From IMG/VR virus record IMGVR_UViG_3300014720_002669: DNA of 64,000 nt, one strand, 5' to 3'. This document shows, in pieces, positions 9,020 through 63,507 of the stretch. The stretch comes from a virus. Made by a program: the position numbers and the translations under genes. Each line of letters opens with the position of its first letter. Within the stretch, counting starts at the first letter, position 1. The notes below the pieces were generated by a model. That model had not been told where the DNA came from, made no database searches, and saw nothing but the letters and a program-made list of their open reading frames with translations.

Positions 9020-9690
9020 TTTCAAAAAAACCTATTAAAAAACATCCCATACTTCAGGGACTACTTTTACTGGATTGCGGGGAACCACAAGTACATGACC
9101 AATTTTTTATGGACAAGTATTATATAAATCTCGTTGAGAAACTTAAAAATAAAAATTTTGAGTATATAGTCAACCACTCTTATGGATTACAAATAGATTT
9201 AAATGATACTGCCATGGCCACCACCATAAAAGTTTGTGATTATGATCACAATCATCCCATCATGCGTAACTTGTTTAAAAATTCTGGCAAAGAAAAAACT
9301 TCAACGCTGCTGTCCAAATATCTACTAAATAGAATACCAACAATTAATATTTTAAATGCTGAAGATTTTGTTTGGTTCTGTACCAAATATCTGCCAATAG
9401 AGCGTGTACAAAATTGGCTGGTGGCAGGGCACACCTGGCGAATGTGTACACATGATGCTGGGCTTGGATTACAAACGTTGGCTAGATTAACAAAAATTTA
9501 TCCTTTGAATTTTTATGCCACAGATTACAGTTTTTGTACCATGACTGAGCAAACTGCAATATTAAAAGATTTTGAACAGGACAGCATGAATTGGCGTCTT
9601 ATAGAAGGTTTTGGGTATCAACTGCTACCTCAAACAATGTTTGAGGTAGCCTACCTCAAACACAAATTAGATAAATATCCACATGCGTGA
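9016..9690 (+). CDS. Hypothetical protein, AT-rich
   Basis: 224-aa ORF with composition unlike its neighbours. Confidence 0.7.
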
Positions 9691-10225
9691 ACACATTGAT
9701 CTAGTAGAAGCCAGCACAAGGCCGGCCAAATTGGAAACTACTCCCTTGCCCTACGGACCCAAGGACTTGGCTCCTGTGCTGAGTGCCGAATCCATTGACT
9801 ATCACTATGGGCACTTGGCCCGAGGCTATGCCAAGCGTTACAACGCCGGAGAAGGCAATGCGGATTTTAATCGCGCTGGCAGTTTTTTACACAATAAGTT
9901 TTTCCCTCAGCTGAGACCTGTCAAAGGTGCCAACAGACCCCGTGGTGCTGTGCTTGCCTTGATTGAAGAAAAGTTCAAGACCTGGGAAGACTTTAAGGAA
10001 CAGTTCAAAGAAGTTGCCATGAAAATCCAGGGCTCAGGTTGGGTGTATTTGAGCACCGGTGGTGACATCAAGACCATTGCCAACCATGCGGTGCGCACAG
10101 ATATCTGTGTGCTAGTTGACTGGTGGGAACATGTGTGGGCCACAGATTATCAGTGGGACAAAGAACGCTATTTAGACAATATTTGGAAAATTATTGACTG
10201 GGACGTTTGCAATGAACGCTTGTAA
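9683..10225 (+). CDS. sod: Fe/Mn superoxide dismutase with N-terminal extension
   Basis: PLPY..L.P, YHYGH, FLHN, QGSGW, DWWEH. Confidence 0.9.
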   Translation: MREHIDLVEASTRPAKLETTPLPYGPKDLAPVLSAESIDYHYGHLARGYAKRYNAGEGNADFNRAGSFLHNKFFPQLRPVKGANRPRGAVLALIEEKFKTWEDFKEQFKEVAMKIQGSGWVYLSTGGDIKTIANHAVRTDICVLVDWWEHVWATDYQWDKERYLDNIWKIIDWDVCNERL

Positions 10226-34278: not shown

Positions 34279-34737
34279 ATGTGGCTTTTACACTTCTTAC
34301 CTGACGCACTCATACTCTGGATCTGCAACATTGTATTGCTGGCAGGCGTGTTGCTGACTGTCACAGCATTTTTCATCAAGCGCATTCCTGTGATAAACCA
34401 GTACCGGACGCCTGCACAAGTCCTGGGCATCGCACTGCTGGTCATGGGCGTGTACTGGCGTGGCGGTTATGCTGTGGAACAGGAATGGCGTGAACGTGTG
34501 GCTGAAATGGAAGCCCGTGTAGCGGCTGCTGAAGCCAAAAGCGCAGAAGAAAATGTCAAAATTGTCACCAAGGTTGTGACAAAAACACAGGTAATTCGAA
34601 CACGTGGCGAAACTATAACCAAGTACATTGACCGTGAAATAATCCGGTACGATGAAAAGTTTGCGCCTGGTGGTCAATGTGAAATACCACAGGAATTTAT
34701 TAAGGCGCACAACAGCGCAGCAGAGGCACCCAAATGA
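34279..34737 (+). CDS. Inner-membrane spanin (Rz-like)
   Basis: N-terminal TMs, coiled coil, C-terminal CEIP...HN.AA; in the lysis region. Confidence 0.7.
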   Translation: MWLLHFLPDALILWICNIVLLAGVLLTVTAFFIKRIPVINQYRTPAQVLGIALLVMGVYWRGGYAVEQEWRERVAEMEARVAAAEAKSAEENVKIVTKVVTKTQVIRTRGETITKYIDREIIRYDEKFAPGGQCEIPQEFIKAHNSAAEAPK

Positions 34738-35837
34738 AAGTAAATGAAATTATATTAGAATCAGTGACTCATATGAGACCAGTCAATGAACTGGCACCCA
34801 GTCCAGGTGGTGCCGGTCCCAGCGACTATTTTCGTGTGTTAGCATCGGCCTGGTACAATCATGACATCAGTCAACTGGCTGACATTGCCAGAAAAGGTGG
34901 ATCACCCATGAAGAAAATCATGGACGCACAAGTGGCCGTGGAAAAAATGCTGCAACGTGGTGTGATTGGCAGCGACGGCAAAACACGCAAGTATGATATC
35001 TCATACAACTCGGACTTTGATGGTGTAGTGATTTCGAGTGCCGACTACTACGAGCACAGTGACTATGACGCTGCCGGCAATGAAGTTGACAGTCGCTCAG
35101 GACGTCCCTGGGGACCAAATGATTACATGGAGTTTGATGGCGACGAACTGGACGAAGGCATGTATGAAAACACAGAACTTGTGGCGGAATTTGATCTCAT
35201 TGAGAGTATCATAAACCGGCTGGCTGCTCACAACGGTGTCGAGGCTGAAGTGATCTGGGAGGATCTTGAAAGCCTCACCGAAGATGAACTGTATGCATTT
35301 GCTGTGACTTCAGAACCCATCATGGAAGGCAAAGGCGTGACAGAAGCATTTGGTTTATACGGTCCATTTACTGTGACCATCAACACCGGTGAGCGTCCGC
35401 AATCAAGAACCAAAACCAAAAAGTTCCGTAGGGAAGATGATGCCATACTGTATGCTGAAGATTGGTTGGAAGATGCTCCACAATATGTGTTCGCAACAGC
35501 CAAAGTCACTGACCCAGAAGGCAACGTTGTTTGGACCACGAATGAAAGTTTAGAAGAACAAGGTGTGGCGGAAGACTGGCAAAAGGCCAACAAACGTGAC
35601 CGTACCGCAGGCATGAGTCAAAAGGCTGTGAATGCCTATCGCAGAGAGAATCCTGGTTCAAAATTGAAAACTGCTGTGACCACCAAGCCTTCAAAACTCA
35701 AGCGTGGGTCAAAGGCCAGCAAACGCCGAAAGAGTTATTGCAGTCGCAGTCGCGGACAGATGAAAATGCACAGCATCAGTTGCGCCAAAACTCCTGACAA
35801 GGCCATTTGCAAAGCACGTAGACGTTGGAACTGCTGA
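34734..35837 (+). CDS. Modular putative internal head polyprotein with basic Cys-containing C-terminal domain
   Basis: MKVNEIILE leader; KGVTE and QGVAE linkers; KRRKSYCSR...ARRRWNC. Confidence 0.7.
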   Translation: MKVNEIILESVTHMRPVNELAPSPGGAGPSDYFRVLASAWYNHDISQLADIARKGGSPMKKIMDAQVAVEKMLQRGVIGSDGKTRKYDISYNSDFDGVVISSADYYEHSDYDAAGNEVDSRSGRPWGPNDYMEFDGDELDEGMYENTELVAEFDLIESIINRLAAHNGVEAEVIWEDLESLTEDELYAFAVTSEPIMEGKGVTEAFGLYGPFTVTINTGERPQSRTKTKKFRREDDAILYAEDWLEDAPQYVFATAKVTDPEGNVVWTTNESLEEQGVAEDWQKANKRDRTAGMSQKAVNAYRRENPGSKLKTAVTTKPSKLKRGSKASKRRKSYCSRSRGQMKMHSISCAKTPDKAICKARRRWNC

Positions 35838-44853: not shown

Positions 44854-44869
44854 TTGCTAAATACAGTTT

Positions 44870-46605: not shown

Positions 46606-46620
46606 CGGTAAATACAGCTT

Positions 46621-49600
46621 ATGAACATTCATGAGCTGGCTACTTACAATCTTGATGATGCTGTAAAGTTTCATCAGCGACTCAATCCTGTACTTTGGGC
46701 AAGAGACGAACATCTCTTGCCTGAAGTGCGCAACAAGTTGTTAAAAATAGCAGCAGACTTCCAAGAATTCCTGGGAGTAGAGGATCTCAAAGTAAAAGAC
46801 ATCACTGTGTCTGGATCCAATGCTGCTTATTCTTACACCAAACAATCCGACATAGATCTACACCTGGTGGTCGAAATGCCCAACGATCCGGTGTATCAAG
46901 AGTTGTTTGCTGCCAAAAAATATCAATACAACACCGAACATGACATCACCATAGGTGGTGCTGACGTTGAACTGTATGTGCAACCAGATGATCAGCCACA
47001 TCACAGTCAAGGCATTTATTCAATCAAGAACTCAGACTGGGTAAAAGTACCACAACGCAAACGCAGTCAAATAGATGACACCTGTGTGTTGGCCAAGGTA
47101 GATGATCTGGCCACCAGAATCAAATCTGCCATTGCCAGCCAGGATAGATCAGTAATGGATTCGTTGTGGAAAAAAATCAAAATCATGCGCCAGAGCGGTT
47201 TGGAAAATCATGGCGAGTTTGGCTGTGAGAATGTTGCATTCAAACTGCTGCGAAACAATGGCAGCATTGGCGCATTGAAGTCAGCTATAACAGCAGCACA
47301 AGATCGTGAACTGAGTTTGCCGCCTAAAAAACGTGTGCGCTATGGATTTTCAGAAGACGTGACTTCCACCCCTGACGGAGTCAGTGCCAGCACCAACATG
47401 TTTTTGAACGAAACACCTGTGAGCAATGTTGTGCAGTCTTTTGTGCAAGATGTAGTGCAACGCCTGGGCATTGAAAACATGCCTGAAGTAGTTTTGCACG
47501 ATGATCCTGACTGGAGCAAACAAAACAACAGCTTTGGTCAATACAATCCTGACACACGAACTTTGCATGTGAGTTTGGTTGATCGCCATCTACTGGACAT
47601 ATTGCGAACAGTGGCACATGAGCTCACTCATTGCCGTCAAAACGAGCTGGATACATTGCCAGATCATGCTGGAGAAACTGGCAGTCGTTGGGAAAATCAA
47701 GCCAATGCTCAAGCAGGCATACTCATGCGTGACTTTGCAGATGCCAATCCTGAGTATTTCAACGAGTCATACACTCAAGCAAAAAGTTTGCAGTCATCCA
47801 TGAAGACCTTTCGTGCCAAAGTACGCATCAAAGATCGATACGGTAGTCCGGCTATTGAAGCACAGGTAGTGGCCAGAAACCATGACATGGCCAGACAAAT
47901 GTTGAGAGCTCAGTACGGTCCTGACAGTGTGATCAGCACAGTGACCGAGCTTAAAGAAAATGCATCGGGCTATATTCCCAAGAACCGACGAGAAGCAGCC
48001 ATGCCTCGGTATGCCATGGCTCTTTCAGTGGATATTAAACCTGGCGAAGTTGGCAGACAAGCCAACAAACTTGCTCTGAAAACTGGACGCAATGGTGAGC
48101 CTGGTTTGCTGCAACCCGATGCACAGAATCTCTTGCGTGAGTTCAGCGAATTTGTGACAGAACAAGATCAGTTGTTTGAAATCACCATGAGTCCTTCAAG
48201 CCTGAAGAAGTTGAGTGCGCAGACTGGTGCCTTGGCCGGCATGGAATTTGAAATGATTGTGCCCGGTACCGGGGATGATGACGGCGATCTAGAACCTGAC
48301 TACGACTTTGATGAACGTTGTCGCAGCATTCAGGATGCCCGTGATTTTTTCTATGACGGTGACTACAACGGTCGTCGAGATATTCAACGCATGAGTGATC
48401 GCATGCAGAATGACTACGCAGAATGGTTGTATGAAAGACTTGACACCGACTTTACCAACAACAGTGAAAATCTCATTAGTGAGTGGATCTCAAACAATGT
48501 GGACGAATCAAAGTGGAATCCTGACGATCTTGAAGGCGAGGCTCGTCAGGAAGCCCTGGCGGAATTTGTCGCCAATGTTGATGCTCGTCCCAGCAGTGAT
48601 TATTATCAACAGGCCCTGGACGAGTATCGTGAAGAAAATCAGGGCAGTTATGACGAAAGCGACTGGTTGGATGCCGAAGATCTAGACCTCATGAGTGGCG
48701 TTGAAAACGCCTACAATATAACCTGGCCACATTGGCGCAGCACAGGTGGCGGTGAAGTCAGCACTGAGGAAGTGGCCGACAGTTTCAGCAACGCAGTGGG
48801 CCGTCCTTGCCGAGCCAGCAGCAGTTATCACTCAAGCCGAGTACCACGACCCAGCAAAACCAATGTGAGTTATATTGTGGAACCTGACAGCAGCCTGGAA
48901 CCAGATGATGCCAATGACTCTGGCCTGGAGTTTGTGAGCCCACCCCTGCCCATTGAAGAACTGCTCAGTGATTTGAACAAAGTTAAAAAGTGGGCTGACA
49001 AGACAGGTTGCTACACCAATGATTCAACTGGCCTGCACATCAATGTGTCAGTACCTGGTTGGTCTGGCGGCTCAGAAGGCCTGGACTATGTGAAACTGGC
49101 AGTGTTGTTAGGTGACGAATATGTGCTGGATGCATTTGGTCGCGCAGGCAACACCTATGCCAAGTCGGCCATGGGCAAGATTCGTTCAATAATCAAACAA
49201 AATCCTGCCAAGGCAGAAGAAATGCTGGAACGCATGAAGTCTGGCATGGATCAACTGGCCAGCCGCGCCATACACTCAGGTGCCACAGAAAAATACACGT
49301 CAATCAACAACAAAAATGGCTACATTGAATTCCGCAGCCCAGGTGGCGACTGGTTGGATGCCAACTTTGATCAAATTGAAAACACCTTGCGACGTTTCAC
49401 AGTGGCTCTAAGTGCTGCTGTTGATCCCCAGGCCTACAGACAAGAGTACCTAAAGAAACTGTATAAACTTCTGGATGTCAAGAGTGAAAAAGATTCCTTG
49501 AGTTATTTTGCACGATATGCCGCAGGCGAATTGCCCCGAGCCGCGCTGAAGAGTTTTGTGCGTCAGGCCCGACTGGAACGTGATATACAACGTGGCAAAA

Positions 49601-51582
49601 CAGGCGAGGAAGAATTCAAATGGGAAGTTGGCAGACCAGGTTATGGTGCTAGTATCATTGTCCGAGCCAAAACCAAAGAACAAGCCATTGACCGAGCCGT
49701 GCAACCAGATGGATACCCCGACTGGGCCAGTGCCAGAAGTCAACTCACAGCCCGGCCCATAGGACCAGTCGACACCGCCCCAGTCAGAGCCACTGCAGGT
49801 GAACCCCAGGCCGTTGGACAACAAGGCAACTGGGGCATTTGGATGACTGGTGAGAATCGTTTCAGCCGAGCACCAGGCCAACCGGACCCTTCTGTATATC
49901 GTAGATTTGCCAGTCGTGAGGCGGCTGAACAATACATTGAACAACAACGTCAAACGTACCCCGGTATGCGTACCGACATTGAAGTGCGTGAGATTGAACC
50001 CAGTGCCGCAGCACAGGCCATGGGACAACAAGGTGCAGCCATGCTGGGCGATCGACCCAGCAACCCCGATGGCAACTATGTGATCACGCCCGAAGGAGAT
50101 CGCACCAGCGTTTACTATCGATTCCAAGCAGTGGACATTGATGATGCCAACACAGTGTTGCGAGCCTGGCGACAGCAGTATCCCAATCAAGTGTGGTTGG
50201 CTCAACGCGACGACAGCAGAACGTTGGGACAACCGCCTGTGCCAGGATCTACCCTGGACCTACAACGTCAACGACTTGCGGCCACACCTGCATATGGTTT
50301 TAGAGATTTATTTTCAACCACCCCAGATCAACAGCAAGGCGGCAGACCTCATGATCCCACAGGACGCTATGCCATTGTGGCACGCAGCGACACAGCAGTG
50401 CATGGACGCACAGGCGGTCCAGCCCCCTACTACTATTTCAGATTCAACATGCAGAATCTTGAAGACCAAGGCCACGGACGATATGTTCTACAGGCCTGGG
50501 CTGCCAGAAATTCAGTGAACACTGATGATTACATGGTGGTTGATACCACTCAATATGCAGATGATGCTGCTCAAGGTGGCACAGTGGATGTGGCCACAGA
50601 CCGACCAGCACAGCGTACAGGCGGTGAGTTTACTGGTGAGTGGCGGGTCCTAGTCAACGGCCAAGAAGTGTATAGATTCAGTGGTGCAGGCAACAGTCAA
50701 GCCGATGCTAACAGAGTTGCCGCTGATTGGTTGCGTCGCAATGGAATGGGGGTGAGTGGCGAAGGCTTTGAAGTGTATCCGGTGATGGCAGAAAGTCTGC
50801 AAGAGGCCAAAGGCAACCGTAGAAAGTTTGCTGATGGCTATTTGGTGTTTAGTGATCATTTGTATGACAGACTACGCGATCACAGCATCAGTCAAGACGC
50901 CGTTGAGCAATTGTTAAGAAAACTGGAAGTGCGCAGATCTATTGATTTAATTCGAATGCCATACATTGACTTTGTAGTCAAAACTCCAGATTTAGCATTG
51001 GCCATTGCTAAAACACGTGACCAAAATGACAACACAGCGTTTGTTGTCAGCACAGTGCGTCAAAATTTGCGCTCAGGACCTGACCAAGATGTAGTTTATT
51101 TAGAAGATATGCCACAGCCCAGTCACGGTCCAGGACAGATCAAAGATCTAAATGAACCCTTGGGGCCAGAGTCACCACCCCAAATGCCCGCGGGCACCAT
51201 CAAAGTAGATGTGTCAGACATGTATGACTGGTATAAATTGGGACAAAAGATATCAGACCTGGACAGCATCCGGCCTGGAGAATTGGGTTCAGGACCACCA
51301 TCAACTGTGTTTGCATTTGGCTCAGAAGACCTAAAGAACATGTACAGTCATGCGCTCACACGACTGGGATTGAAGACACATGATTTGGATGAGCCTGGCG
51401 AAGAGGACATTGACGAAAACTTTGCAGACGGCCGGAATCCACAAGACAAGGGAGATAGTGCTAGGCATGGTATACCAAAGAAGGCCTCATTAGCAAAGTT
51501 AGACAAAATAGGACATGGGTCAGGCCGTAAAGCACAATTAGCCAGATGGCAGGCGAATATGAGACGTGGTCGTGCTAAATAA
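46621..51582 (+). CDS. 1653-aa polyvalent protein: Pol-beta NTase, HExxH zincin, amidoligase, small repeats, RelE-like module
   Basis: GSNA...SDIDLH; AHELTH; GMEFE / EPDSS / GLEFVSPP / TGLHIN / IEFR; SDHLYDR. Confidence 0.8.
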   Translation: MNIHELATYNLDDAVKFHQRLNPVLWARDEHLLPEVRNKLLKIAADFQEFLGVEDLKVKDITVSGSNAAYSYTKQSDIDLHLVVEMPNDPVYQELFAAKKYQYNTEHDITIGGADVELYVQPDDQPHHSQGIYSIKNSDWVKVPQRKRSQIDDTCVLAKVDDLATRIKSAIASQDRSVMDSLWKKIKIMRQSGLENHGEFGCENVAFKLLRNNGSIGALKSAITAAQDRELSLPPKKRVRYGFSEDVTSTPDGVSASTNMFLNETPVSNVVQSFVQDVVQRLGIENMPEVVLHDDPDWSKQNNSFGQYNPDTRTLHVSLVDRHLLDILRTVAHELTHCRQNELDTLPDHAGETGSRWENQANAQAGILMRDFADANPEYFNESYTQAKSLQSSMKTFRAKVRIKDRYGSPAIEAQVVARNHDMARQMLRAQYGPDSVISTVTELKENASGYIPKNRREAAMPRYAMALSVDIKPGEVGRQANKLALKTGRNGEPGLLQPDAQNLLREFSEFVTEQDQLFEITMSPSSLKKLSAQTGALAGMEFEMIVPGTGDDDGDLEPDYDFDERCRSIQDARDFFYDGDYNGRRDIQRMSDRMQNDYAEWLYERLDTDFTNNSENLISEWISNNVDESKWNPDDLEGEARQEALAEFVANVDARPSSDYYQQALDEYREENQGSYDESDWLDAEDLDLMSGVENAYNITWPHWRSTGGGEVSTEEVADSFSNAVGRPCRASSSYHSSRVPRPSKTNVSYIVEPDSSLEPDDANDSGLEFVSPPLPIEELLSDLNKVKKWADKTGCYTNDSTGLHINVSVPGWSGGSEGLDYVKLAVLLGDEYVLDAFGRAGNTYAKSAMGKIRSIIKQNPAKAEEMLERMKSGMDQLASRAIHSGATEKYTSINNKNGYIEFRSPGGDWLDANFDQIENTLRRFTVALSAAVDPQAYRQEYLKKLYKLLDVKSEKDSLSYFARYAAGELPRAALKSFVRQARLERDIQRGKTGEEEFKWEVGRPGYGASIIVRAKTKEQAIDRAVQPDGYPDWASARSQLTARPIGPVDTAPVRATAGEPQAVGQQGNWGIWMTGENRFSRAPGQPDPSVYRRFASREAAEQYIEQQRQTYPGMRTDIEVREIEPSAAAQAMGQQGAAMLGDRPSNPDGNYVITPEGDRTSVYYRFQAVDIDDANTVLRAWRQQYPNQVWLAQRDDSRTLGQPPVPGSTLDLQRQRLAATPAYGFRDLFSTTPDQQQGGRPHDPTGRYAIVARSDTAVHGRTGGPAPYYYFRFNMQNLEDQGHGRYVLQAWAARNSVNTDDYMVVDTTQYADDAAQGGTVDVATDRPAQRTGGEFTGEWRVLVNGQEVYRFSGAGNSQADANRVAADWLRRNGMGVSGEGFEVYPVMAESLQEAKGNRRKFADGYLVFSDHLYDRLRDHSISQDAVEQLLRKLEVRRSIDLIRMPYIDFVVKTPDLALAIAKTRDQNDNTAFVVSTVRQNLRSGPDQDVVYLEDMPQPSHGPGQIKDLNEPLGPESPPQMPAGTIKVDVSDMYDWYKLGQKISDLDSIRPGELGSGPPSTVFAFGSEDLKNMYSHALTRLGLKTHDLDEPGEEDIDENFADGRNPQDKGDSARHGIPKKASLAKLDKIGHGSGRKAQLARWQANMRRGRAK

Positions 51583-51589
51583 TGTTATC

Positions 51590-52186
51590 ATGGCACACGT
51601 TTATATCATCACAAACAAAATAAACAATAAACAATACGTCGGAGTGACCAATAACTCACTTCAAGAAAGATGGAAAAGTCATCTGTATGACAATAAGATC
51701 ATTAGCAAGGCTATCAAAAAATATGGCAAAGAAAACTTTTCCATAGAAGCAATACATGAATGTGATACAATGGATGAAGCGTACATTCTTGAACCAAAAT
51801 TTATTATTGAACATAATACCAAATACCCAAATGGATACAATGTATCGTCGGGAGGCAAAGGATCGCAAGTTGGTAAACGCAAGCCCACTCCAGATCATGT
51901 CAAGCAAAAAATAAGTGAATCAATCAAGAAAAATCATTACTGGAACAACTTGTCTGAAGAACAAAAAGAAAAATGCAGAGAAAGTTGGCGGGCAAACAAT
52001 CAGTCTCGTATAGGGCAAAAAAGAAGTTCATATAACAATGGATTATTCAAAAAAACTGTTTGGATCAACAACGGCGAACAGAGAAAACGAGTTCCAGAAT
52101 CTGATATAAATGACTGGATATCAAATGGGTGGATACGCGGGCACATGAACGGTGTAGTCAACATGAAATTTGGACATAAGAAATGA
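51590..52186 (+). mobile_element. GIY-YIG homing endonuclease
   Basis: HVYIITNKINNKQYVGVT...RWKSH...IKKYG...GYN; AT-rich. Confidence 0.9.
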
Positions 52187-52611
52187 GAAATCTCATCAAC
52201 CTAATCGAAGCCAAACAACGTGGTTGTCCCTTGGCCACACATGACATAGATGAAAACTTAAAGAATCGTCAACGAGCCATTGACGACTATCACTATGGTC
52301 CTGCCAATCCTGACCGTGCTGAAGACTACTGGGCCAAGAGTGCCCGGGGATTCAAAGTCAGTGTGGCCACTGCTCGAACCATGCAGTGTGGCAACTGTGC
52401 GGCCTTTGACGTCAGCGACAGCATGCGAGAATGTATCGCTCAGGGCATACGCGGTGATGAAACTGCGGTGGATGCCAATGCCAGTATCAACGGGGCTGAC
52501 CTGGGCTACTGCAACTTCTTGCACTTCAAGTGTGCTGGCACACGTAGTTGCCGTGCTTGGATCACTGGTGGTCCCATCACTGAAAAAGACAAACACAAGA
52601 GTGCAGATTGA
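52183..52611 (+). CDS. Cys-rich hypothetical protein, putative internal head protein
   Basis: MRNLINLIE leader; CGNC, GYC...C...C..W. Confidence 0.75.
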   Translation: MRNLINLIEAKQRGCPLATHDIDENLKNRQRAIDDYHYGPANPDRAEDYWAKSARGFKVSVATARTMQCGNCAAFDVSDSMRECIAQGIRGDETAVDANASINGADLGYCNFLHFKCAGTRSCRAWITGGPITEKDKHKSAD

Positions 52612-52620
52612 GACCTTGCA

Positions 52621-53199
52621 GTGAGACACCACGAAATCACTCAAGAAGCATCGCCCAACACCTGGGCAGGCAGTTTTACTCCTGACCTGGTGGCCAGCAA
52701 GACCTGGTTGACCACACAGTTGAAAAAACAACTGGCCGGTGCGTCAGCTGGCGACGTCTATGTGCTGGGCAGTTGGTGGGGCAACACAGGAGTGTTTATC
52801 CAGCAGGCCGGCATTGAGTTTGATCGACTGATCATGGTAGAACGGCGCAGATACTTGTTGGCCAGCACCAAGATGCTGTTGAACGACCTGTGGCAACAAG
52901 GACGCTTGGTATTGTGGCATCAGGATGCTGCCAACATCCAGTATCCCACCAATCGAACCATCACAGTGATCAACACCAGCAGCAATGAAATGCCCAGAAC
53001 TTGGATCACTCGAGTGCCCCGGGGCACACTCACAGTGATACAGTCAAGGGACAATGTCAAGGATGTCAAGGTCATCACTGACACAGCAGCACAGTTTTAT
53101 GCCAAGTTTCCCTTGAAAACCACAGTGTACTGGGGCGAACGCCGACTGCGAGATCCAGAAACACGCTACCGACGCTGGATGAAGATTGGCTATAAATAA
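52621..53199 (+). CDS. Methyltransferase-like protein with CTS-like leader
   Basis: VYVLGSWWG, VINTS; MRHHEITQE. Confidence 0.6.
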   Translation: MRHHEITQEASPNTWAGSFTPDLVASKTWLTTQLKKQLAGASAGDVYVLGSWWGNTGVFIQQAGIEFDRLIMVERRRYLLASTKMLLNDLWQQGRLVLWHQDAANIQYPTNRTITVINTSSNEMPRTWITRVPRGTLTVIQSRDNVKDVKVITDTAAQFYAKFPLKTTVYWGERRLRDPETRYRRWMKIGYK

Positions 53200-53205
53200 A
53201 CAACT

Positions 53206-53559
53206 ATGACGTACAAAGAAATTCTTGAAGCCTGCTGGACTGGTTATCGCCAAGCAGGCATGAAAAACAAAGGCGGGCGCCAGGTGCCCAATTGCGTGCC
53301 TGTGCGCGAAGCCGAAATAGAAGAAAATCTTCGTGACTGGTTCAAACAAAAGTGGGTGCGTTTTGGTCCTGATGGAAAAATCCGTGGCGACTGTGCTAGA
53401 GGAAGTGAAAAGGAAGGCAAGCCCAAGTGTTTGCCCCAGGCCCGGGCGCACGCACTGGGTCGAAAAGGTCGTGCCAGTGCAGCGGCTAGAAAACGGCGTG
53501 AAGATCCCAACCCCAACCGTACAGGAAAGGCCATCAACGTGGCAACTAAAAAGAAATGA
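53206..53559 (+). CDS. Two-module basic protein, putative internal head protein
   Basis: TATAAATA; MTYKEILE|ACW...NCVP; IEE|NLRDWF...PKCLP. Confidence 0.75.
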   Translation: MTYKEILEACWTGYRQAGMKNKGGRQVPNCVPVREAEIEENLRDWFKQKWVRFGPDGKIRGDCARGSEKEGKPKCLPQARAHALGRKGRASAAARKRREDPNPNRTGKAINVATKKK

Positions 53560-54707
53560 TCATAAGCGAACTATTTGAAGAGCCACAACAGTGCCCCGAA
53601 TGCGGTGGCATCAGTTTCTCAGACTTGATCCTGGCTGAAAAGAAAGACGCCTGCTACCACAAGGTCAAGGCATCAGCCAAGGTATGGCCGTCGGCCTATG
53701 CATCCGGACGCTTGGTACAGTGTCGCAAAAAAGGTGCCGCCAACTATGGCAACAAATCAGAAGGTGTATCAGAAGCACCACTACCTGGACAACGTCGAGG
53801 CCCATTAGATTTGCAACCACTGGAAGGTGGTGGTGTTGGTGGCGGTGGTGGTTTCGGTGGCCCAACTCGAAGTGGTCCTTCACAATTTTTTGGTCCCAAA
53901 CCCGGGTCACGTGAAGCATCTGTTGCTCAGCCCAATCCCAACACTATGACGGTGAAACAAAGTCCAAACCCTGACTATCGCTCCCCATCTCAACAATCTC
54001 AAACCACAGGTGATAAACCAAAAATCAAAGTCAATCCTGGTGAAACCGTACCTCAGGCCATAGAACGCACAAAAACCCAACAAGAATTTGGCAAGTTCCT
54101 ACAAGGGCAAAGTGGTCAAACATTTGGCGCCGGCGCTGGCCGTGGCTCAATAAATCCAGCGCCAACAAACACCATGAACAACACACCGGTCAGTGTTAGA
54201 AATAAGCCATCTGCTATGAATTCCATGGCCAGAGACTTGACCAAGACCCCCACGTCAACTAGACAAAACACTCAGACTGAGCCAGTCAAACAATCTGAAC
54301 CAGTCAAACAACCTGATCCGTTTGACTTGCCACTTGACGTTGGTGCAGCACGTCCAGGTTTTGACGGTAGAATGGGCTCAACACCAATGCCAAACAGAGC
54401 AGACAAACAGTCATCCATGCTTGGAAAAGCAGGCAAAACACTGGGATATGGAGCAGCCGCTTATGGTGCTGCTGACTTAGGTTCACGTGCCCTGGACTAC
54501 TATGATCAAAATTATTCTGAGGTTCCTTATGTTCCTCAGATCAAGGAAGCCAAAAAACAACCACCCGAAGTGGAATATGATGACGAATATGATGCCATGG
54601 TGGCCAGAGTTAAAAAGTTGGCCGGACTGGGTCCGCTTAAAACTGTGTACGATCCCAAACGACGTCAGTATCGCAACCAGCCCACAGTCCAACAGCCTAA
54701 AAAATGA
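53556..54707 (+). CDS. Modular putative internal head polyprotein
   Basis: MIISELFE; LAE|KKDACY...WPSAYASG; EGVSE linker; RVKKLAGL. Confidence 0.7.
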   Translation: MIISELFEEPQQCPECGGISFSDLILAEKKDACYHKVKASAKVWPSAYASGRLVQCRKKGAANYGNKSEGVSEAPLPGQRRGPLDLQPLEGGGVGGGGGFGGPTRSGPSQFFGPKPGSREASVAQPNPNTMTVKQSPNPDYRSPSQQSQTTGDKPKIKVNPGETVPQAIERTKTQQEFGKFLQGQSGQTFGAGAGRGSINPAPTNTMNNTPVSVRNKPSAMNSMARDLTKTPTSTRQNTQTEPVKQSEPVKQPDPFDLPLDVGAARPGFDGRMGSTPMPNRADKQSSMLGKAGKTLGYGAAAYGAADLGSRALDYYDQNYSEVPYVPQIKEAKKQPPEVEYDDEYDAMVARVKKLAGLGPLKTVYDPKRRQYRNQPTVQQPKK

Positions 54708-55309
54708 GAGCACAGGAGTTTGTCATAGAGCGCAAAAAAAGCCGCCGAAAAAAATCCAGCCGGCACGGTGGATATTTCTTTCCAGGATATGCCTACTATA
54801 GCAGTGGTGGCGATTCCAGTGAAGGCGGTGGAGACGGCGGCGGCGAATCACGTTCAGGCACACCGGAAGGCAAACGTATTGCAAGAAAGCCTGGGCAACC
54901 AGCAGCATCAAAAAAACATTCAGATCTTTACACAGATGAGAATCCTCGTGGCACCATCACCGGTTTGAAATTTGCCACGGTGGAAGATGCTCGAGCCAGT
55001 GTAAGTAAAATACGAAACAGTGGCCGCAGTCATGCACACAAGATACAGGCAGCTGTGGCCATGGAACAACGAGCCCGTGCAGCCGGCAAAAGTGATGCAG
55101 CAGCAGTGTATAGGCGATTCATTGACGCCAACAAAAAAACTGAAGAACAGCAATTAGACGAACTCAGCTTCCTAGGATCCCAATGCACCAAAGACTGCTC
55201 AGGTCACAGAGCCGGATACGAGTGGTCAAAACGCAAAGGACTACGTCAGGCCAACTCATGGTCACCCAGTTTCAACAAAGGCGCTGGCCTGGCAGTGGCA
55301 GGAAAATAA
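54704..55309 (+). CDS. Modular putative internal head polyprotein
   Basis: MRAQEFVIE; DLYTDENP module; LDE|LSFLGSQCTKDCSGH module. Confidence 0.7.
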   Translation: MRAQEFVIERKKSRRKKSSRHGGYFFPGYAYYSSGGDSSEGGGDGGGESRSGTPEGKRIARKPGQPAASKKHSDLYTDENPRGTITGLKFATVEDARASVSKIRNSGRSHAHKIQAAVAMEQRARAAGKSDAAAVYRRFIDANKKTEEQQLDELSFLGSQCTKDCSGHRAGYEWSKRKGLRQANSWSPSFNKGAGLAVAGK

Positions 55310-55342
55310 CACCCCAACTGTGAATCACAAATACATAAGTGC

Positions 55343-56185
55343 ATGATTGATATTGTCACTGTTGTTTTTGAACAAGAAATTTCCATATTACGAGCACAGG
55401 CACAAAGCATTGCTTTAAATTGCCAACGCATTGGTATCCGCAACATCTACGTGGTGTTGAATGACACAGAAACCATTGCCGGTCAAATTGATCCTGCTTG
55501 GTGGGGACCACTGGCCAGCAATGTGCTGATAATTCCACGCACAGCATTCTCCACACCGTTTGTGACCGATGGATGGGTCAGTCAGCAAGTACTCAAACTG
55601 CTCACCGCATCAATGAGCTACAACACTTACTCAATGATTTTGGATGCCAAAACCTTGTTTGTGCGTGAACTGGATCCTGCCACTGTGGTGGACGAAACAG
55701 GTCGAATCCTCACAGGTAGATGTCCCATATACCCTGTGTTCGAGCCCAGCAAAAAAATAGTAGAACAGTTGTTTGAAATTGAACTCACTGAACAACTGGG
55801 CCCTGGTGGTGTGCCATTCATTGTACACAACGACACCGTGAGAATGATGATAGCTGAAGTTACCTTGCGCACACGCACATCATTTCCCACATGGTTCCAA
55901 CAACAAGGCATGGTCACTGAATTTATATTGTATTCAGGCTTTGTAAAATTCTTGTGCGGCAATTTGGAAGTCATGTACGACAGGCAAAACAAACTGGGCA
56001 GCATAGTAAATGTCAGTCATGATGAAACTGTGCATTGGCTGACGAAAATAAATCAAATGAACAATCGAAACACTCTGACTGTGAGTGTGCATAGAGGCGC
56101 CTGGCTCCGACTAACTGCACAACAACGTCAAGAATATCGAGACTTGTTGCTACAACGTGGCATAGAGGCAGCACAAGATCTATGA
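55343..56185 (+). CDS. Nucleotide-diphospho-sugar transferase-like protein (DUF6492-like)
   Basis: GWVSQQVLKL, ILDAK, TEFILY. Confidence 0.65.
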   Translation: MIDIVTVVFEQEISILRAQAQSIALNCQRIGIRNIYVVLNDTETIAGQIDPAWWGPLASNVLIIPRTAFSTPFVTDGWVSQQVLKLLTASMSYNTYSMILDAKTLFVRELDPATVVDETGRILTGRCPIYPVFEPSKKIVEQLFEIELTEQLGPGGVPFIVHNDTVRMMIAEVTLRTRTSFPTWFQQQGMVTEFILYSGFVKFLCGNLEVMYDRQNKLGSIVNVSHDETVHWLTKINQMNNRNTLTVSVHRGAWLRLTAQQRQEYRDLLLQRGIEAAQDL

Positions 56186-60402: not shown

Positions 60403-60439
60403 GGGATATTTATATACACAGTTTTGACTAAATATATCT

Positions 60440-60742
60440 ATGCAAACTCAATACGTGCGAGTAGTATGTGACATAAGTGGCAGGTGTTCTCAACCTGCAC
60501 GATATCGCGTGTATGTCAATGAAGAATTGTTCAGTGAGCGCACCTGGATCTGGAAAGACATTTATCTTGAAGAGTCTTTGCAAATACAAGCACCGTTTGG
60601 CGCTTACTTGTTGCGGTTTGAAAATGTAGATCCTGACTGTGGGAATTTCAAAATGCGCAATGTGCGAGTACAAGAAGGTCCTGGCAAGATCAAAACCTTT
60701 GATGGCAAAATATACATAGAGGTGCATGATGAGATGGCGTGA
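60440..60742 (+). CDS. Hypothetical protein
   Basis: [17 protein letters not shown]; TAAATA 5 nt upstream. Confidence 0.75.
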
Positions 60743-60947
60743 AATTGTAGAATCAGCATCAGCAGGCGCTACTGCATCTGGCGGTATTGCTCCTGTAAGC
60801 CAGCCCATGGGCATAACGTCAAGATCTGGCAGTTCCTTACTGACAGGTAAATATACAACTGGTTTGGACCCTACGCCGAATACACCTAAAGAATACAAGA
60901 GGAACAAGCATGCTCGCGGACAATTTGAAAACTCTATTGGCAAGTAA
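60729..60947 (+). CDS. Small putative internal head protein
   Basis: MRWREIVE|SASAGAT. Confidence 0.65.
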   Translation: MRWREIVESASAGATASGGIAPVSQPMGITSRSGSSLLTGKYTTGLDPTPNTPKEYKRNKHARGQFENSIGK

Positions 60948-61971: not shown

Positions 61972-63507
61972 ATGCTGATAAACGACTTATTCAACAATAA
62001 CAAACAAGGTGTGGCGGAAGGCAGGTTTGATGAACCACTAACAGGATGGCATATTGTTTATCGTAATTCAGGTAATCCAGTTCATGCTACTCCCAGTTTT
62101 GAAACCAAAGAGCAAGCACAAAAGTATCTAATGACACGAATGTTTGCCAATCACCAAGATTACAAAGTAGTTCATACCGCAGGTGTAGGTGTGGCGGAAG
62201 GTGAAGTCATTCCATTCAAGAGGCCCCAGTCACAGACCGCAGTGTCTTGGCAAAAACTGCCCAAAGATGTATTGACCCTGGCAAATGATTGGTACTGGGC
62301 CGACTACGAAGGTGGTGGATCTGCTGCCATAATGGATCCCAAAGGGCTAGGCAGCGGATTTGCAAATCAAAAAAAATATTTGGGTGCTCAACTGCAACAA
62401 CGAGGATGGGCCATTGACTTTGATGACGAATTTGAAAATGTTGTATTGAAAAACAAGCAAGGTCAAACAATTTTGTTGCCCATTGAGGATGCACAGACTT
62501 TCTCGGGCTGGGCCACGGGCATCAATCTTGTCACAGAGCAAGGTATGGCAGAAGGCAAAGCCGATTACAACTTTGATATTGAGGATTTGAAACGCCTTGA
62601 GCAAATTAGAGATCTAGCAACACTAAAAGCACAAGCATTAGAATTGATCAGTAAACCCAGTGCCAAACCAATGAAACCAGAAAAAGTTGAATGGTTTAGA
62701 AATGCTCTGAATCGCATGGACAGTCCGTTAAAAGTCATAAAGTTAATGTATGATTTGTTGCTCAGTGGCGAAGGAAAAGCCGTGGTCGGATCCAGGTCAT
62801 CAATGAACCCCAACACTTATCGTCAGAGGTTTGGTGAGCAAGGCATTGTGGAAAATCAAGATTGGATGAAAGATTTAGCAGCCAAGGCCGCTGCCATGTC
62901 CAAGCCTGGCACACCATATGTGCCACCAAAGCAAGACGCTGAAAAGGCACGTCGTGATCTCACAGCACGATATCCCAACATTGATGAACTGGTCGCGGCT
63001 GCTGAAAAACGTCGTGATCCCTACTATCAATATGCCGAAGGCCCAGCCTACTATCGGGGCCGCGAAGCCGAACATGAATATCAACGACTGCGACAGATCC
63101 AACGTGTGATTCAAGGTTTGAACGAAATGAACTTTGGCGGTGTAGGCCAAACCACAGATTCAGCCACTGGCGATATAACCACCAGTTTCAATCAAGGTCC
63201 GTTGTCTGTGTCGCAGACCAAAACGCCTGGCGGTTATACAAAACAAACTGATCAACAAGTCAACCTGGGCACAGCAACGCTGGGCGCACGAACGGTTGGA
63301 CCCAACATTGGCGCAGGTCAGTTGGCTGGTACCACAACCAAGACTGCCACAAACAACATTACCGGACAGGCCAAACAACAAGTCAAAGGAGTTGGCTTTG
63401 GTGGTGCCACAGGTGCCACAGTGGGCAAAAACTACGTTGATCAATACAGCGTAAATGAAAACGTGGCACGCATGCAATATCTGGCAGGTATTCGACCAGC
63501 CCGATAA
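61972..63507 (+). CDS. Cassette-like polyprotein with four GVAE-type linkers
   Basis: KQGVAEG, GVGVAEG, EQGMAEG, EQGIVE; ends RMQYLAGI. Confidence 0.75.
   Translation: MLINDLFNNNKQGVAEGRFDEPLTGWHIVYRNSGNPVHATPSFETKEQAQKYLMTRMFANHQDYKVVHTAGVGVAEGEVIPFKRPQSQTAVSWQKLPKDVLTLANDWYWADYEGGGSAAIMDPKGLGSGFANQKKYLGAQLQQRGWAIDFDDEFENVVLKNKQGQTILLPIEDAQTFSGWATGINLVTEQGMAEGKADYNFDIEDLKRLEQIRDLATLKAQALELISKPSAKPMKPEKVEWFRNALNRMDSPLKVIKLMYDLLLSGEGKAVVGSRSSMNPNTYRQRFGEQGIVENQDWMKDLAAKAAAMSKPGTPYVPPKQDAEKARRDLTARYPNIDELVAAAEKRRDPYYQYAEGPAYYRGREAEHEYQRLRQIQRVIQGLNEMNFGGVGQTTDSATGDITTSFNQGPLSVSQTKTPGGYTKQTDQQVNLGTATLGARTVGPNIGAGQLAGTTTKTATNNITGQAKQQVKGVGFGGATGATVGKNYVDQYSVNENVARMQYLAGIRPAR
62003..62020 (+). 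repeat. Dispersed linker repeat AACAAGGTGTGGCGGAAG
   Basis: Identical to 35557-35574; the core recurs at 62187-62201; variants at 62539 and 62836. Confidence 0.85.

What the first reader, a model, noticed from the sequence alone, without database searches (positions are those of the whole stretch)
52183..55309. Family of late genes sharing a T4-like capsid-targeting N-terminal peptide
Seen: unrelated proteins begin with similar 8-9 aa leaders ending in Glu: MRNLINLIE (52183), MRHHEITQE (52621), MTYKEILE (53206), MIISELFE (53556) and MRAQEFVIE (54704). Elsewhere the same pattern appears as MKVNEIILE (34734), MRWREIVE (60729) and MREHIDLVE (9683), with variants MLINDLF (61972) and MNIHEL (46621). 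Established: T4 internal proteins use a roughly 10-aa capsid-targeting sequence (MKTYQEFIAE) that gp21 removes. Inference: this is a large, extensible cargo set loaded into the prohead. It includes a methyltransferase-like enzyme and several basic Cys-rich modules.
Basis: partly seen in the sequence, partly recalled or inferred. Interest (0 to 1): 0.8.

Follow-up and report, generated by a model that had tools for sequence, protein, structure and literature searches.

The report
T4-style capsid-loading leaders on phage cargo
A roughly 350-kb uncultured lake phage puts a short N-terminal tag, nearly the same as the one phage T4 uses to load proteins into its head, on a changeable set of unrelated proteins, so they are probably packed into the virion, trimmed by the head protease and delivered with the DNA, though nobody has shown this at the bench.

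Summary
All ten ORFs start as described. The leader is far commoner at N-termini than chance allows: 8 of 69 called genes against about 1 expected.

In about 80 related uncultured-phage contigs the main form is M-[RK]-[AS]-x-E-F-[ILV]-x-E. It heads 109 proteins in about 30 similarity groups. Its core is N-terminal 72 times and internal 3 times in 326,564 residues. Glu holds the last position in 64 of 69 leaders.

A profile built from these leaders picks out T4 ipII and ipIII, the experimentally defined capsid-targeting sequence, and nothing else among 104 T4 genes sampled.

Near-complete relatives carry a T4-type head module with the gp21 protease (Peptidase_S77). The same cargo module has no leader in ~55-kb phages in which no gp21 was found.

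The cargo includes a class-I SAM-methyltransferase fold whose leader is disordered in the model, an Fe/Mn-SOD-like protein, and basic Cys-containing modules that are fused into a virion protein in T4-like cyanophages.

MLINDLF and MNIHEL are weak cases, as is the Alt-like class. Packaging and cleavage are inferred, not shown.

This is a new member of a known kind. The scan has reported T4-style leaders before on other DNA (e1-5862810, e1-6033753, e1-5826867).

The parts
52183..52611 (+). p1: 142-aa conserved Cys-rich protein of unknown fold with leader MRNLINLIE|A (gp67/gp21-like '..NL[IV]E|A' class)
   Evidence: More than 300 viral contigs hold orthologues. In 55 aligned sequences E9 is invariant, R2, I5 and A10 are at least 90% conserved, and seven Cys are invariant. 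The AF2 model is poor. No PDB, Pfam or PHROG hit.
52621..53199 (+). p2: 192-aa protein with a class-I SAM-methyltransferase fold, leader MRHHEITQE|A, GTG start
   Evidence: AF2 pLDDT is 91.7, but residues 1-9 score below 50. Foldseek matches TehB, NTM1 and NodS with TM 0.55-0.68. In 41 orthologues at 28-71% identity E9 is invariant while 3-10 residues precede it. PSSM score 11.3 bits.
53206..53559 (+). p3: 117-aa basic protein (mature pI 10.5, 4 Cys) holding the CWxGY module plus a second phrog_727 module, leader MTYKEILE|A
   Evidence: The same leader plus module is internal in cyanophage Syn33_105 (..NKSEG MTYQEFQE KCWKGY).
53556..54707 (+). p4: 383-aa basic protein with a CPxCGG zinc-ribbon-like motif and a DACYHKVK..WPSAYASG module, Alt-like leader MIISELFE
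   Evidence: The module is near-identical to Syn33_105. This leader class is not statistically supported on its own.
54704..55309 (+). p5: 201-aa basic protein (mature pI 10.1) with the best class-A leader, MRAQEFVIE|R; residues 55-150 are a module found in more than 592 viral contigs
   Evidence: PSSM score 20.5 bits.
34734..35837 (+). 367-aa protein with class-A leader MKVNEIILE|S and a C-terminal DUF6321 module (phrog_727 positions 344-430)
   Evidence: PSSM score 14.7 bits. The gene at the matching position in G014 (43329) starts MRANEFVTE but encodes a different 190-aa body.
9683..10225 (+). Fe/Mn superoxide-dismutase-like protein with a roughly 15-aa N-terminal extension, MREHIDLVE|ASTRPA
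   Evidence: Sod_Fe_C scores 70 bits, and Sod_Fe_N aligns only from residue 20. Among the orthologues in 80 loci the leader is 9-14 aa long and ends ..[IL]x[LI][VIL]E|ASTRPAKLETTPL; all 80 have TAAATA within 30 nt upstream.
60726..60947 (+). Small basic protein (72-73 aa), leader MRWREIVE|SASAGAT; its body resembles the N-arm of the major capsid protein just after the predicted maturation site
   Evidence: Orthologues start MKMHEIMETAS or MRANEFILETT; the G014 copy starts MRAQEFIKE|NASVGAT.
61972..63507 (+). 511-aa modular protein starting MLINDLFNNNKQGVAE: a weak, Alt-like candidate leader
   Evidence: score -4.0. It has no Glu at positions 8-9. Relatives start MLVQDLFEN or MFIDDLFNDNK.
46621..51582 (+). 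1653-aa polyvalent protein (nucleotidyltransferase-like, HExxH, amidoligase-like) starting MNIHEL: a doubtful leader with only I-H-E at residues 3-5
   Evidence: The PHROG alignment already starts at residue 10. TAAATA lies 12 nt upstream.
53191..53198 (+). TATAAATA, a T4 late-promoter-like motif 13 nt before the p3 start
   Evidence: Of 38 TAAATA sites in the window, 18 lie 5-50 nt upstream of a called start on the same strand (0.9 expected). These include the sites before the tail-fibre gene (12871-14526, -) and the large genes at 14596 and 17531.
46609..46614 (+). TAAATA promoter-like motif before the polyvalent gene; it probably also drives the homing-endonuclease gene, p1 and p2
   Evidence: That these genes form one operon is inferred from their overlapping or abutting coding sequences.
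9672..9677 (+). TAAATA promoter-like motif 5 nt before the ATG of the SOD-like gene

Best explanation
The 8-10-residue N-termini are capsid-targeting propeptides of the T4 type.

Proposed mechanism, step by step:
1. The genes are made late, from TAAATA promoters (inferred).
2. The leader binds the scaffolding core of the assembling prohead and carries whatever is fused behind it inside (inferred by analogy with the T4 CTS).
3. The phage's gp21-type serine protease cuts after the Glu that ends the leader, at [I/L/V]-x-E (inferred).
4. The mature, mostly basic proteins stay in the head with the DNA and enter the host at infection (inferred).

Shown here:
- A portable, strictly N-terminal peptide with consensus M-[RK]-[AS]-x-E-F-[ILV]-x-E, plus a second form ..N-L-[IV]-E|A, sits on unrelated proteins.
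- It is sequence-equivalent to the experimentally defined T4 CTS.
- The clade has a T4-type head module including the protease.
- The gene set bearing the leader changes from phage to phage.
For: (1) Strictly N-terminal. The core [RK][AS].EF[ILV].E occurs 72 times N-terminally and 3 times internally in 1087 proteins (326,564 residues). Each internal case follows a Met. In the complete relative G014 the count is 6 N-terminal and 0 internal in 104,960 residues.

(2) Portable. 109 class-A proteins fall into about 30 similarity groups, with up to 9 per 20-kb locus. The window's cargo proteins are mutually unrelated.

(3) Conserved as protein, not as DNA. Synonymous codons vary at the conserved positions.

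(4) Glu at the end. When leaders are chosen on residues 1-7 alone, position 9 is Glu in 64 of 69 and Asp in 1. E9 is invariant in 55 p1 orthologues and in 41 p2 orthologues. In T4, residues 8 and 10 of the CTS govern processing and Asp at 10 blocks it (PMC9026906).

(5) Cross-recognition of T4. The lake-phage PSSM scores ipII and ipIII at 12.9 bits. They are the only hits of 8 bits or more among 104 T4 genes sampled, and there are 0 such hits among 74 genes of a phage in which no gp21 was found. The highest internal-Met score in any genome tested was 11.9, and the 99th percentiles lay below 0.

(6) Protease present in the clade. Peptidase_S77 was found in G008, which is syntenic with window 43.8-61.3 kb, and in 4 of 5 near-complete 340-364-kb relatives. 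The gene order is Portal_T4 / 73 aa / gp67-like (MTSKFEQLIE|F..) / S77 / 366 aa / Gp23.

(7) Natural experiment. The p5 module carries a leader in 10 of 23 contigs with estimated genome size of at least 100 kb, including 6 of 6 in the 340-380-kb class. It carries none in 14 of 14 contigs with estimated size 52-63 kb, and no gp21 was found in any of these (Fisher p=0.0056).

(8) Outside the fold. Residues 1-9 of p2 have pLDDT below 50 in a model that averages 91.7. The SOD domain starts at about residue 16-20. Leader length varies among orthologues.

(9) Same junction as the capsid protein. The E|[NS]AS[AV]GAT junction of the 60726 protein matches the predicted capsid-protein maturation site RKYLKE|NASAGST. 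T4 gp23 is cut at FLTE65|A (PMC5694885).

(10) Virion evidence in cultured phages. A fused homologue of the p3, p4 and DUF6321 modules is annotated 'virion protein' in S-SCSM1, whose paper reports virion mass spectrometry. In PA5oct (capsid protein 66% identical to G014's), 2 of the 3 best leader-scoring proteins are annotated 'structural protein, ESI-MS/MS', against a base rate of 93 of 461.

(11) Late-promoter-like TAAATA lies upstream of the leader genes or of their operons.
Against: - There is no proteomic, cleavage or packaging evidence for this phage or its close relatives.
- gp21 and the scaffold gene are not in the window, and no whole genome is held.
- The T4 targeting residue Tyr4 has no counterpart: position 3 is Ala or Ser. 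Recognition would therefore have had to co-evolve with a scaffold that shows no detectable similarity to a known scaffold family.
- The fused cyanophage virion proteins carry no N-terminal leader, so these modules can reach virions by another route.
- The p3 leader is also internal in those proteins, so there it may be a linker or cut site rather than an address.
- The Alt-like class is statistically weak.
- The PA5oct support is 2 of 3 against a 20% base rate, about P=0.1.
- The regexes were written after seeing the data.
- The relatives are phylogenetically non-independent.
Confidence: 0.7

Rival explanations
1. The peptide is only a protease site or a retained N-terminal helix, not an address. 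The proteins reach the head, or act in the cytoplasm, by other means. The conserved hydrophobic-x-Glu end serves maturation, oligomerisation or activity control.
For: The fused cyanophage homologues are virion proteins without any N-terminal leader. The MTYQEF-type sequence is internal there. In the p1 model the leader continues as a helix covering residues 2-13 (low confidence).
Against: The motif is strictly N-terminal, 72 against 3. A mere cut site would also be frequent internally. The residues conserved upstream of the cut (R/K at 2, F at 6) match the targeting part of the T4 CTS. The leader is disordered in the confident p2 model.
Confidence: 0.13
2. The leader is a recognition tag for another phage enzyme. 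One candidate is a radical-SAM/SPASM maturase, as an earlier scan note proposed for a shared tag in phage RB43. Another is the phage's ClpA-like unfoldase. On this reading it is not a capsid address.
For: A radical-SAM/SPASM gene lies at 59413-60402 (-), right beside the 60726 leader gene. The clade carries many radical-SAM paralogues, at least 17 in G014. A ClpA-like ATPase lies at 40958-43207.
Against: In G014 a fatty-acid desaturase occupies that position, not a SPASM enzyme. Only 14 of 80 p1 loci, which together hold 221 leader genes, have a SPASM homologue within 10 kb. The leaders contain no Cys, Ser or Thr target pattern. The motif matches the T4 CTS, whose function is experimentally defined. 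The near-absolute need for Glu rather than Asp fits gp21 specificity.
Confidence: 0.07
3. The pattern is an mRNA or translation-start feature, such as A-rich early codons, translational coupling or leaderless mRNAs, or else a chance resemblance.
For: The leader codons are A-rich (AGA, GCA, GAA dominate). Several genes overlap by ATGA or start 5-6 nt after a promoter-like motif.
Against: Conservation is at the amino-acid-class level with varied synonymous codons: TTT/TTC, four Ala codons, many Ile/Leu/Val codons. Only 6 of 378 genes in G014 carry the leader, although other genes there also follow TAAATA sites (61 of 378). Enrichment exceeds every shuffle.
Confidence: 0.03

Closest known systems
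Phage T4 internal proteins IPI, IPII, IPIII and Alt: capsid-targeting sequence (CTS) plus gp21 processing (Mullaney & Black 1996, as reviewed in PMC3012670, PMC9026906 and PMC5694885)
   Same: A short N-terminal propeptide sits on otherwise unrelated, mostly basic proteins. The core x-E-F-I-x-E is shared, ending in hydrophobic-x-Glu. The head module is T4-type with a Peptidase_S77 protease. T4 ipII and ipIII are recognised by the lake-phage leader profile.
   Different: The consensus is one residue shorter and lacks Tyr4 (M-[RK]-[AS]-x-E-F-[ILV]-x-E). A second form, ..N-L-[IV]-E|A, resembles the N-termini of T4 gp67 and gp21. The cargo differs: a SOD-like protein, a SAM-methyltransferase fold and Cys-containing mini-modules. 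The genome is about 350 kb. Nothing has been shown experimentally.
Variable internal-protein loci of T-even phages with CTS-like sequences (Repoila et al. 1994, as cited in PMC9026906)
   Same: The set of leader-bearing genes differs between related phages at the same locus. Downstream of the polyvalent gene, the window, G008 and G014 each hold different genes.
   Different: Leader DNA is not conserved between paralogues in this window, so it offers no obvious recombination cassette. Many more cargo families are involved, about 30.
Multi-module virion protein of T4-like cyanophages (phrog_727; Syn33_105 lies after g16; S-SCSM1 gp029 lies just upstream of terL and is annotated 'virion protein')
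   Same: p3, p4, p5 and the 34734 protein each match a different segment of this 450-position family. One module is near-identical to its cyanophage counterpart.
   Different: In cyanophages the modules are fused into one protein without an N-terminal leader. Here they are separate genes, each with its own leader.
Polyvalent proteins of phages and conjugative elements
   Same: Strings of unrelated enzymatic and small modules thought to be delivered with the DNA. The adjacent 1653-aa protein is of this type.
   Different: The finding concerns single-module genes that share an address peptide, not one long chain.
Long propeptides of phiKZ-like and SPN3US head proteins (PMC5694885)
   Same: N-terminal propeptides, removed after x-x-Glu by a related prohead protease, are inferred to target ejection proteins into the head.
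   Different: Those propeptides are mostly longer than 100 residues and are cut at A/S/G-x-E. Here the leaders are 8-14 residues ending in I/L/V-x-E, as in T4.

Membership tests
T4-type capsid-targeting sequence (CTS) / internal-protein system | A short (about 10-19 aa) N-terminal peptide shared by otherwise unrelated proteins | tested here: met
T4-type capsid-targeting sequence (CTS) / internal-protein system | The peptide ends in the gp21 cleavage motif (L/I)-x-E, with Glu required | tested here: met
   Position 7 is I/L/V in 90% of leaders. Position 9 is Glu in 64 of 69 and Asp in 1. E9 is invariant in p1 and p2 orthologues. MRHHEITQE has Thr at P3, as do its orthologues (..EFTAE).
T4-type capsid-targeting sequence (CTS) / internal-protein system | Sequence similarity to the experimentally defined T4 CTS, including targeting residues 4 and 7 | tested here: inconclusive
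   F6 corresponds to T4 F7 and is conserved (69 of 93 Phe, the rest Ile or Leu). T4 ipII and ipIII score 12.9 bits. T4 Tyr4 has no conserved counterpart, since position 3 is Ala or Ser.
T4-type capsid-targeting sequence (CTS) / internal-protein system | The phage encodes a gp21-type prohead protease (Peptidase_S77) within a T4-type head module | tested here: inconclusive
   Met in relatives: G008 (syntenic with the window), 4 of 5 near-complete genomes, and the full module in G014. Not testable for the window's own genome, which is not held.
T4-type capsid-targeting sequence (CTS) / internal-protein system | The proteins are present inside heads with the propeptide removed | not testable with these tools
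   Only indirect evidence exists: the 'virion protein' annotation of S-SCSM1 gp029 and the 'ESI-MS/MS' annotation of PA5oct EST35_0150 and EST35_0238.
T4-type capsid-targeting sequence (CTS) / internal-protein system | The leader suffices to package a foreign protein, and the cargo is ejected into the host | not testable with these tools
   This needs a fusion and packaging assay.
T4-type capsid-targeting sequence (CTS) / internal-protein system | Late expression together with the head genes | tested here: inconclusive
   A TAAATA promoter-like motif is strongly enriched upstream of starts (18 of 38 sites against 0.9 expected) and precedes the tail-fibre gene and the leader genes or their operons. 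No RNA data are available.
phrog_727 / DUF6321 multi-module phage protein | Significant profile match to the family's modules | tested here: met
   p5 matches profile positions 4-84 (E=1.9e-4), p3 positions 111-196 (8e-21), p4 positions 265-310 (3.6e-22) and the 34734 protein positions 344-430 (4.8e-21). PF19846 scores 38 bits. The modules are split over four genes, so no single gene is a full-length member.
Class-I SAM-dependent methyltransferases (p2) | Rossmann-type methyltransferase fold with a Gly-rich motif I | tested here: met
   The AF2 model has pLDDT 91.7. Foldseek gives probability 1.00 to TehB, NTM1 and NodS. A conserved LGSWYGN motif is present. There is no Pfam hit. Activity and substrate are unknown.
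Fe/Mn superoxide dismutase (9683-10225) | Sod_Fe_N and Sod_Fe_C domains above the curated cut-offs | tested here: inconclusive
   Sod_Fe_C scores 70.4 bits (cut-off 20.9). Sod_Fe_N scores 24.7 bits, below its cut-off of 27. Metal ligands were not checked residue by residue.

The most novel reading that the evidence does not exclude
The leader is a sequence-readable 'load into the head' address conserved from T4 to 350-kb lake phages and to PA5oct-like jumbo phages. If so, the whole virion-delivered protein repertoire of uncultured T4-like phages could be read from genomes alone. That repertoire has dozens of families, here including a SOD-like enzyme, a SAM-methyltransferase fold and DNA-binding-looking basic mini-modules. 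It would be a catalogue of first-seconds-of-infection effectors and candidate anti-defence proteins.
Probability: 0.55. Interest if true: 0.65.

Novelty: new member of a known kind. Interest (0 to 1): 0.5.

Why it matters
T4 reviews already suggest that the CTS lets T4-like phages load varied proteins into their capsids (PMC9026906). Documented examples are confined to T-even coliphages.

If the reading holds, the same address code works in a very distant, abundant freshwater jumbo lineage. There it marks about 30 cargo families, and enzymes are among the cargo.

That gives a simple rule for predicting injected proteins in uncultured phages. Injected proteins are prime candidates for anti-restriction and host-takeover functions. 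It also gives ready-made natural leaders for protein-packaging vectors.

In the 21 papers of the searched library that mention the capsid targeting sequence, I found no description of such leaders outside T-even-type phages.

Tried and rejected
- Megablast of 52000-55400 against cultured phages: no match.
- Exact 47-mer of the p1 start in IMG/VR: no match.
- The window's whole genome is not held, so genome-wide scans were run on relatives G008, G014 and G001 instead.
- Pfam gave nothing for the five proteins. PHROGs gave nothing for p1 and p2.
- The AF2 model of p1 was poor, pLDDT 56.5, so no fold search was run on it.
- PDB sequence searches with p5 and with the p1 profile found nothing.
- The ESM Atlas returned only viral hypothetical clusters for p1.
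- A back-translated class-A DNA pattern found nothing in PA5oct. The protein PSSM did find three PA5oct leaders of the form MKI[KN][ED]I[IL]xE.
- The S-SCSM1 supplement held only the BLAST table for ORF29, not peptide lists.
- The PA5oct paper text gives no processing data for the three proteins.
- Non-ATG starts for the SOD orthologues were considered and rejected: an ATG lies 2-5 codons upstream in each case.
- A 'general N-terminal bias' was rejected from the counts in G014, G008 and T4.
- Treating the Alt-like class as an independent family was rejected for lack of positional enrichment.

Full report
**Observation.** The five ORFs of the finding are real, contiguous and on the + strand. 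The five further examples elsewhere in the window also exist. For MRWREIVE the ORF opens one codon earlier, at 60726. After removal of the leaders the proteins share no detectable similarity; no blastp pair has E<0.3. Mature p2, p3, p4, p5 and the 60726 protein are basic, with pI 9.6-10.5. p1 has seven invariant Cys, and p3 and p4 have four Cys each.

**Is it more than chance?** In the window a regex written after seeing the data, ^M.{2,4}[EDNQ][ILF].{1,2}E, matches 8 of 69 called genes. About 1.0 is expected from 343 internal Met sites, and the maximum in 2000 shuffles was 5-6. Because that regex is post hoc, I turned to independent sequences.

p1 has more than 300 orthologues in IMG/VR, and I took 80 loci with 10 kb on each side. 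Of the 1087 genes called there, 221 carry the leader. The 93 unique leaders of the main spacing show strong conservation at positions the regex did not constrain:
- position 2 is R/K in 94%;
- position 3 is A/S in 71%;
- position 7 is I/L/V in 90%.

The consensus is M-[RK]-[AS]-x-E-F-[ILV]-x-E. Its core occurs 72 times within the first 15 residues and only 3 times elsewhere in 326,564 residues, and each of those 3 directly follows a Met. When leaders are chosen on residues 1-7 alone, position 9 is Glu in 64 of 69 and Asp once. Synonymous codons vary at the conserved positions, so selection acts on the peptide. The 109 class-A proteins fall into about 30 similarity groups, and one 20-kb locus holds nine of them.

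**What phage is this?** No whole genome is held for the window. Relatives fill the gap.
- G008 (149 kb) is syntenic with window 43.8-61.3 kb and encodes Peptidase_S77, the T4 gp21 family.
- Four of five near-complete relatives (340-364 kb, two with terminal repeats) encode it too.
- In G014 the order is Portal_T4 (343 bits), a 73-aa gene, a gp67-like acidic protein starting MTSKFEQLIE|FVINDEE..KELF, Peptidase_S77 (88 bits), a 366-aa gene at the scaffold position, and Gp23 (325 bits). This is the T4 order 20-67-68-21-22-23.
- By capsid protein the nearest cultured phages are Vibrio phage 2.275.O, Phosso, PA5oct and the Rak2-like jumbo phages, at 62-67% identity.

**Comparison with T4.** From the T4 record itself, ipII and ipIII start MKTYQEFIAE and ipI starts MKTFKEFTST..ITE. 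A PSSM built only from the lake-phage leaders gave these results:
- T4 ipII and ipIII score 12.9 bits. They are the only hits of 8 bits or more among 104 genes called in 66 kb of T4.
- A 97%-complete 59-kb phage in which no gp21 was found has 0 such hits among 74 genes.
- The window's p5 scores 20.5, the 34734 protein 14.7 and p2 11.3.
- In the complete relative G014, 6 of 378 genes score 18-23 bits.
- The highest internal-Met score in any genome tested was 11.9, and the 99th percentiles lay below 0.

Published mutagenesis places T4 CTS targeting at residues 4 and 7 and processing at residues 8 and 10, with Asp at 10 blocking the cut (PMC9026906). The lake-phage consensus keeps the counterparts of F7, I8 and E10 but not of Y4.

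A second leader form..N-L-[IV]-E|A on p1 and the SOD-like protein, resembles the N-termini of T4 gp67 (MEGLIE|A), gp21 (..LLIE) and gp22 (..QLIAE) and of the clade's own gp67-like protein. A third, Alt-like form (MIISELFE; compare T4 Alt MELITE|LFDE, cut at ITE-6 according to PMC5694885) is too rare to test, at 5 N-terminal against 3 internal.

**Is the leader separate from the cargo?**
- In the confident model of p2 (pLDDT 91.7) residues 1-9 score below 50, and the fold is a class-I SAM methyltransferase.
- Across 41 p2 orthologues the Glu is invariant while 3 to 10 residues precede it.
- The 9683 protein is Fe/Mn-SOD-like. Its SOD domains begin near residue 16-20, and its leader varies from 9 to 14 residues but always ends ..[IL]x[LI][VIL]E|ASTRPAKLETTPL.
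- The small 60726 protein joins a leader to E|SASAGAT. This aligns with the capsid protein just after its predicted maturation site, RKYLKE|NASAGST in G014 and FLTE65|A in T4. The leader Glu therefore sits in the same context as a capsid-protein cut site.

**A natural experiment.** The central module of p5 occurs in more than 592 viral contigs. Among 37 contigs of at least 12 kb, the protein holding it has a leader in 10 of 23 with estimated genome size of at least 100 kb, including 6 of 6 in the 340-380-kb class. It has a leader in 0 of 14 with estimated size 52-63 kb. gp21 was found in five of the large contigs and in none of the small ones, two of which are at least 90% complete (Fisher p=0.0056). 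These contigs are related, and the sizes are CheckV estimates.

**What the cargo is.** p3, p4, p5 and the 34734 protein each match a different segment of phrog_727. In T4-like cyanophages these segments are fused into one protein in the structural-gene block: Syn33_105 lies after g16, and S-SCSM1 gp029 lies just upstream of terL. The S-SCSM1 copy is annotated 'virion protein'. Its paper reports mass spectrometry of purified virions, while its BLAST table lists only hypothetical hits, so the label most likely comes from the spectra. These fused forms have no N-terminal leader. Syn33_105 does contain MTYQEFQE internally, directly before the CWxGY module, which matches the window's MTYKEILE|ACWTGY.

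In PA5oct the three best-scoring N-termini are:
- EST35_0271, MKIKEIILE, not detected in virions;
- EST35_0150, MKINDIITE, lying between the portal gene and the next head-module gene (EST35_0151);
- EST35_0238, MKIKDILVE.

The last two are annotated 'structural protein, ESI-MS/MS', against a base rate of 93 of 461. This is suggestive only, at about P=0.1.

**Timing.** Of 38 TAAATA sites in the window, 18 lie 5-50 nt upstream of a called start on the same strand, where 0.9 would be expected. They precede the tail-fibre gene (12871-14526, -), the large genes at 14596 and 17531, the SOD-like gene, the polyvalent gene and p3 (TATAAATA at 53191-53198). The other leader genes lie downstream in the same runs of abutting genes. 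No RNA run holds the stretch, so late expression remains an inference.

**Rivals.** An earlier scan note (e1-127136) warned that a shared N-terminal tag in RB43 tracks a radical-SAM/SPASM enzyme rather than the capsid. The window does have such an enzyme, at 59413-60402 beside the 60726 gene. Against that reading:
- G014 has a desaturase at that position.
- Only 14 of 80 p1 loci hold a SPASM homologue within 10 kb.
- The leader has no Cys, Ser or Thr target pattern.

A bare cut site would not be confined to N-termini. An mRNA-level signal would not tolerate the observed synonymous variation, nor be limited to 6 of 378 genes.

**Verdict.** The T4-like capsid-targeting reading is the best explanation (about 0.7). 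It rests on sequence logic, comparative genomics and indirect proteomic annotation, with no direct evidence of packaging or cleavage. It extends a known T4 mechanism to a distant jumbo lineage with new cargo types, which makes it a new member of a known kind. The scan has reported the same kind of leader on other genomes and on neighbouring stretches of this one.

Noticed in passing
window 9672-9677, 43871-43876, 44858-44863, 46609-46614, 53193-53198, 60429-60434 (+) and 10993-10998 (-): Seven TAAATA promoter-like motifs begin only 11-13 nt before the start codon, leaving 5-7 nt between motif and ATG. With T4-like late promoters, transcripts would then start at or next to the AUG, giving leaderless or near-leaderless late mRNAs. 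A second group of sites lies 25-29 nt upstream.
   Followed up: partly
G014 (relative, 346,856 bp), many places; window 5442-6644 and 59413-60402 (-): The clade carries an unusually large number of radical-SAM genes. tblastn with the window's 5442 protein finds at least 16 separate places in G014, and there are two further SPASM-type hits.
   Followed up: no
window 51566-52186: A GIY-YIG homing-endonuclease gene (PF01541, 52.7 bits; phrog_314) sits between the polyvalent gene and p1. The true start is probably the Met of MAHVYIIT. G008 has different content at this position, which fits a mobile insertion in a variable cargo locus.
   Followed up: partly
window 60726-60947; L266:2030-2227 (G014 62030-62227): A 66-73-aa protein consists of a leader followed by a copy of the capsid protein's N-arm (E|[NS]AS[AV]GATxSG..). 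It hits the same small PHROG (phrog_17311) as the capsid-protein propeptide junction. It may be a decoy or an extra N-arm peptide. Its function is unknown.
   Followed up: partly
window 60910-61350: A ferritin/Dps-like protein (PF00210, 84 bits; phrog_3636 'DNA binding protein') without a leader lies right after the small leader gene. With the SOD-like gene at 9683, this gives the phage two oxidative-stress-type proteins.
   Followed up: no
L001:1990-3354 (Prochlorococcus phage Syn33 gene 105): The internal sequence ..NKSEG-MTYQEFQE-KCWKGY.. shares TYQEF with the T4 ipII/ipIII CTS. It sits exactly at a module boundary of a cyanophage protein. It may be a relic of a gene fusion or an internal protease site.
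   Followed up: partly
MK797984.1 (PA5oct) 82921-83142, 157529-157843, 179881-180267 (-): PA5oct has its own leader variant, MKI[KN][ED]I[IL]xE, on three small proteins. Two of them are annotated as detected in virions by mass spectrometry.
   Followed up: partly
window 52621-53199 compared with relatives L153, L142, L139, L144, L151: Some p2 (methyltransferase-fold) homologues are embedded in much longer ORFs of 246-653 aa. The same enzyme therefore also occurs as a module of larger proteins.
   Followed up: no
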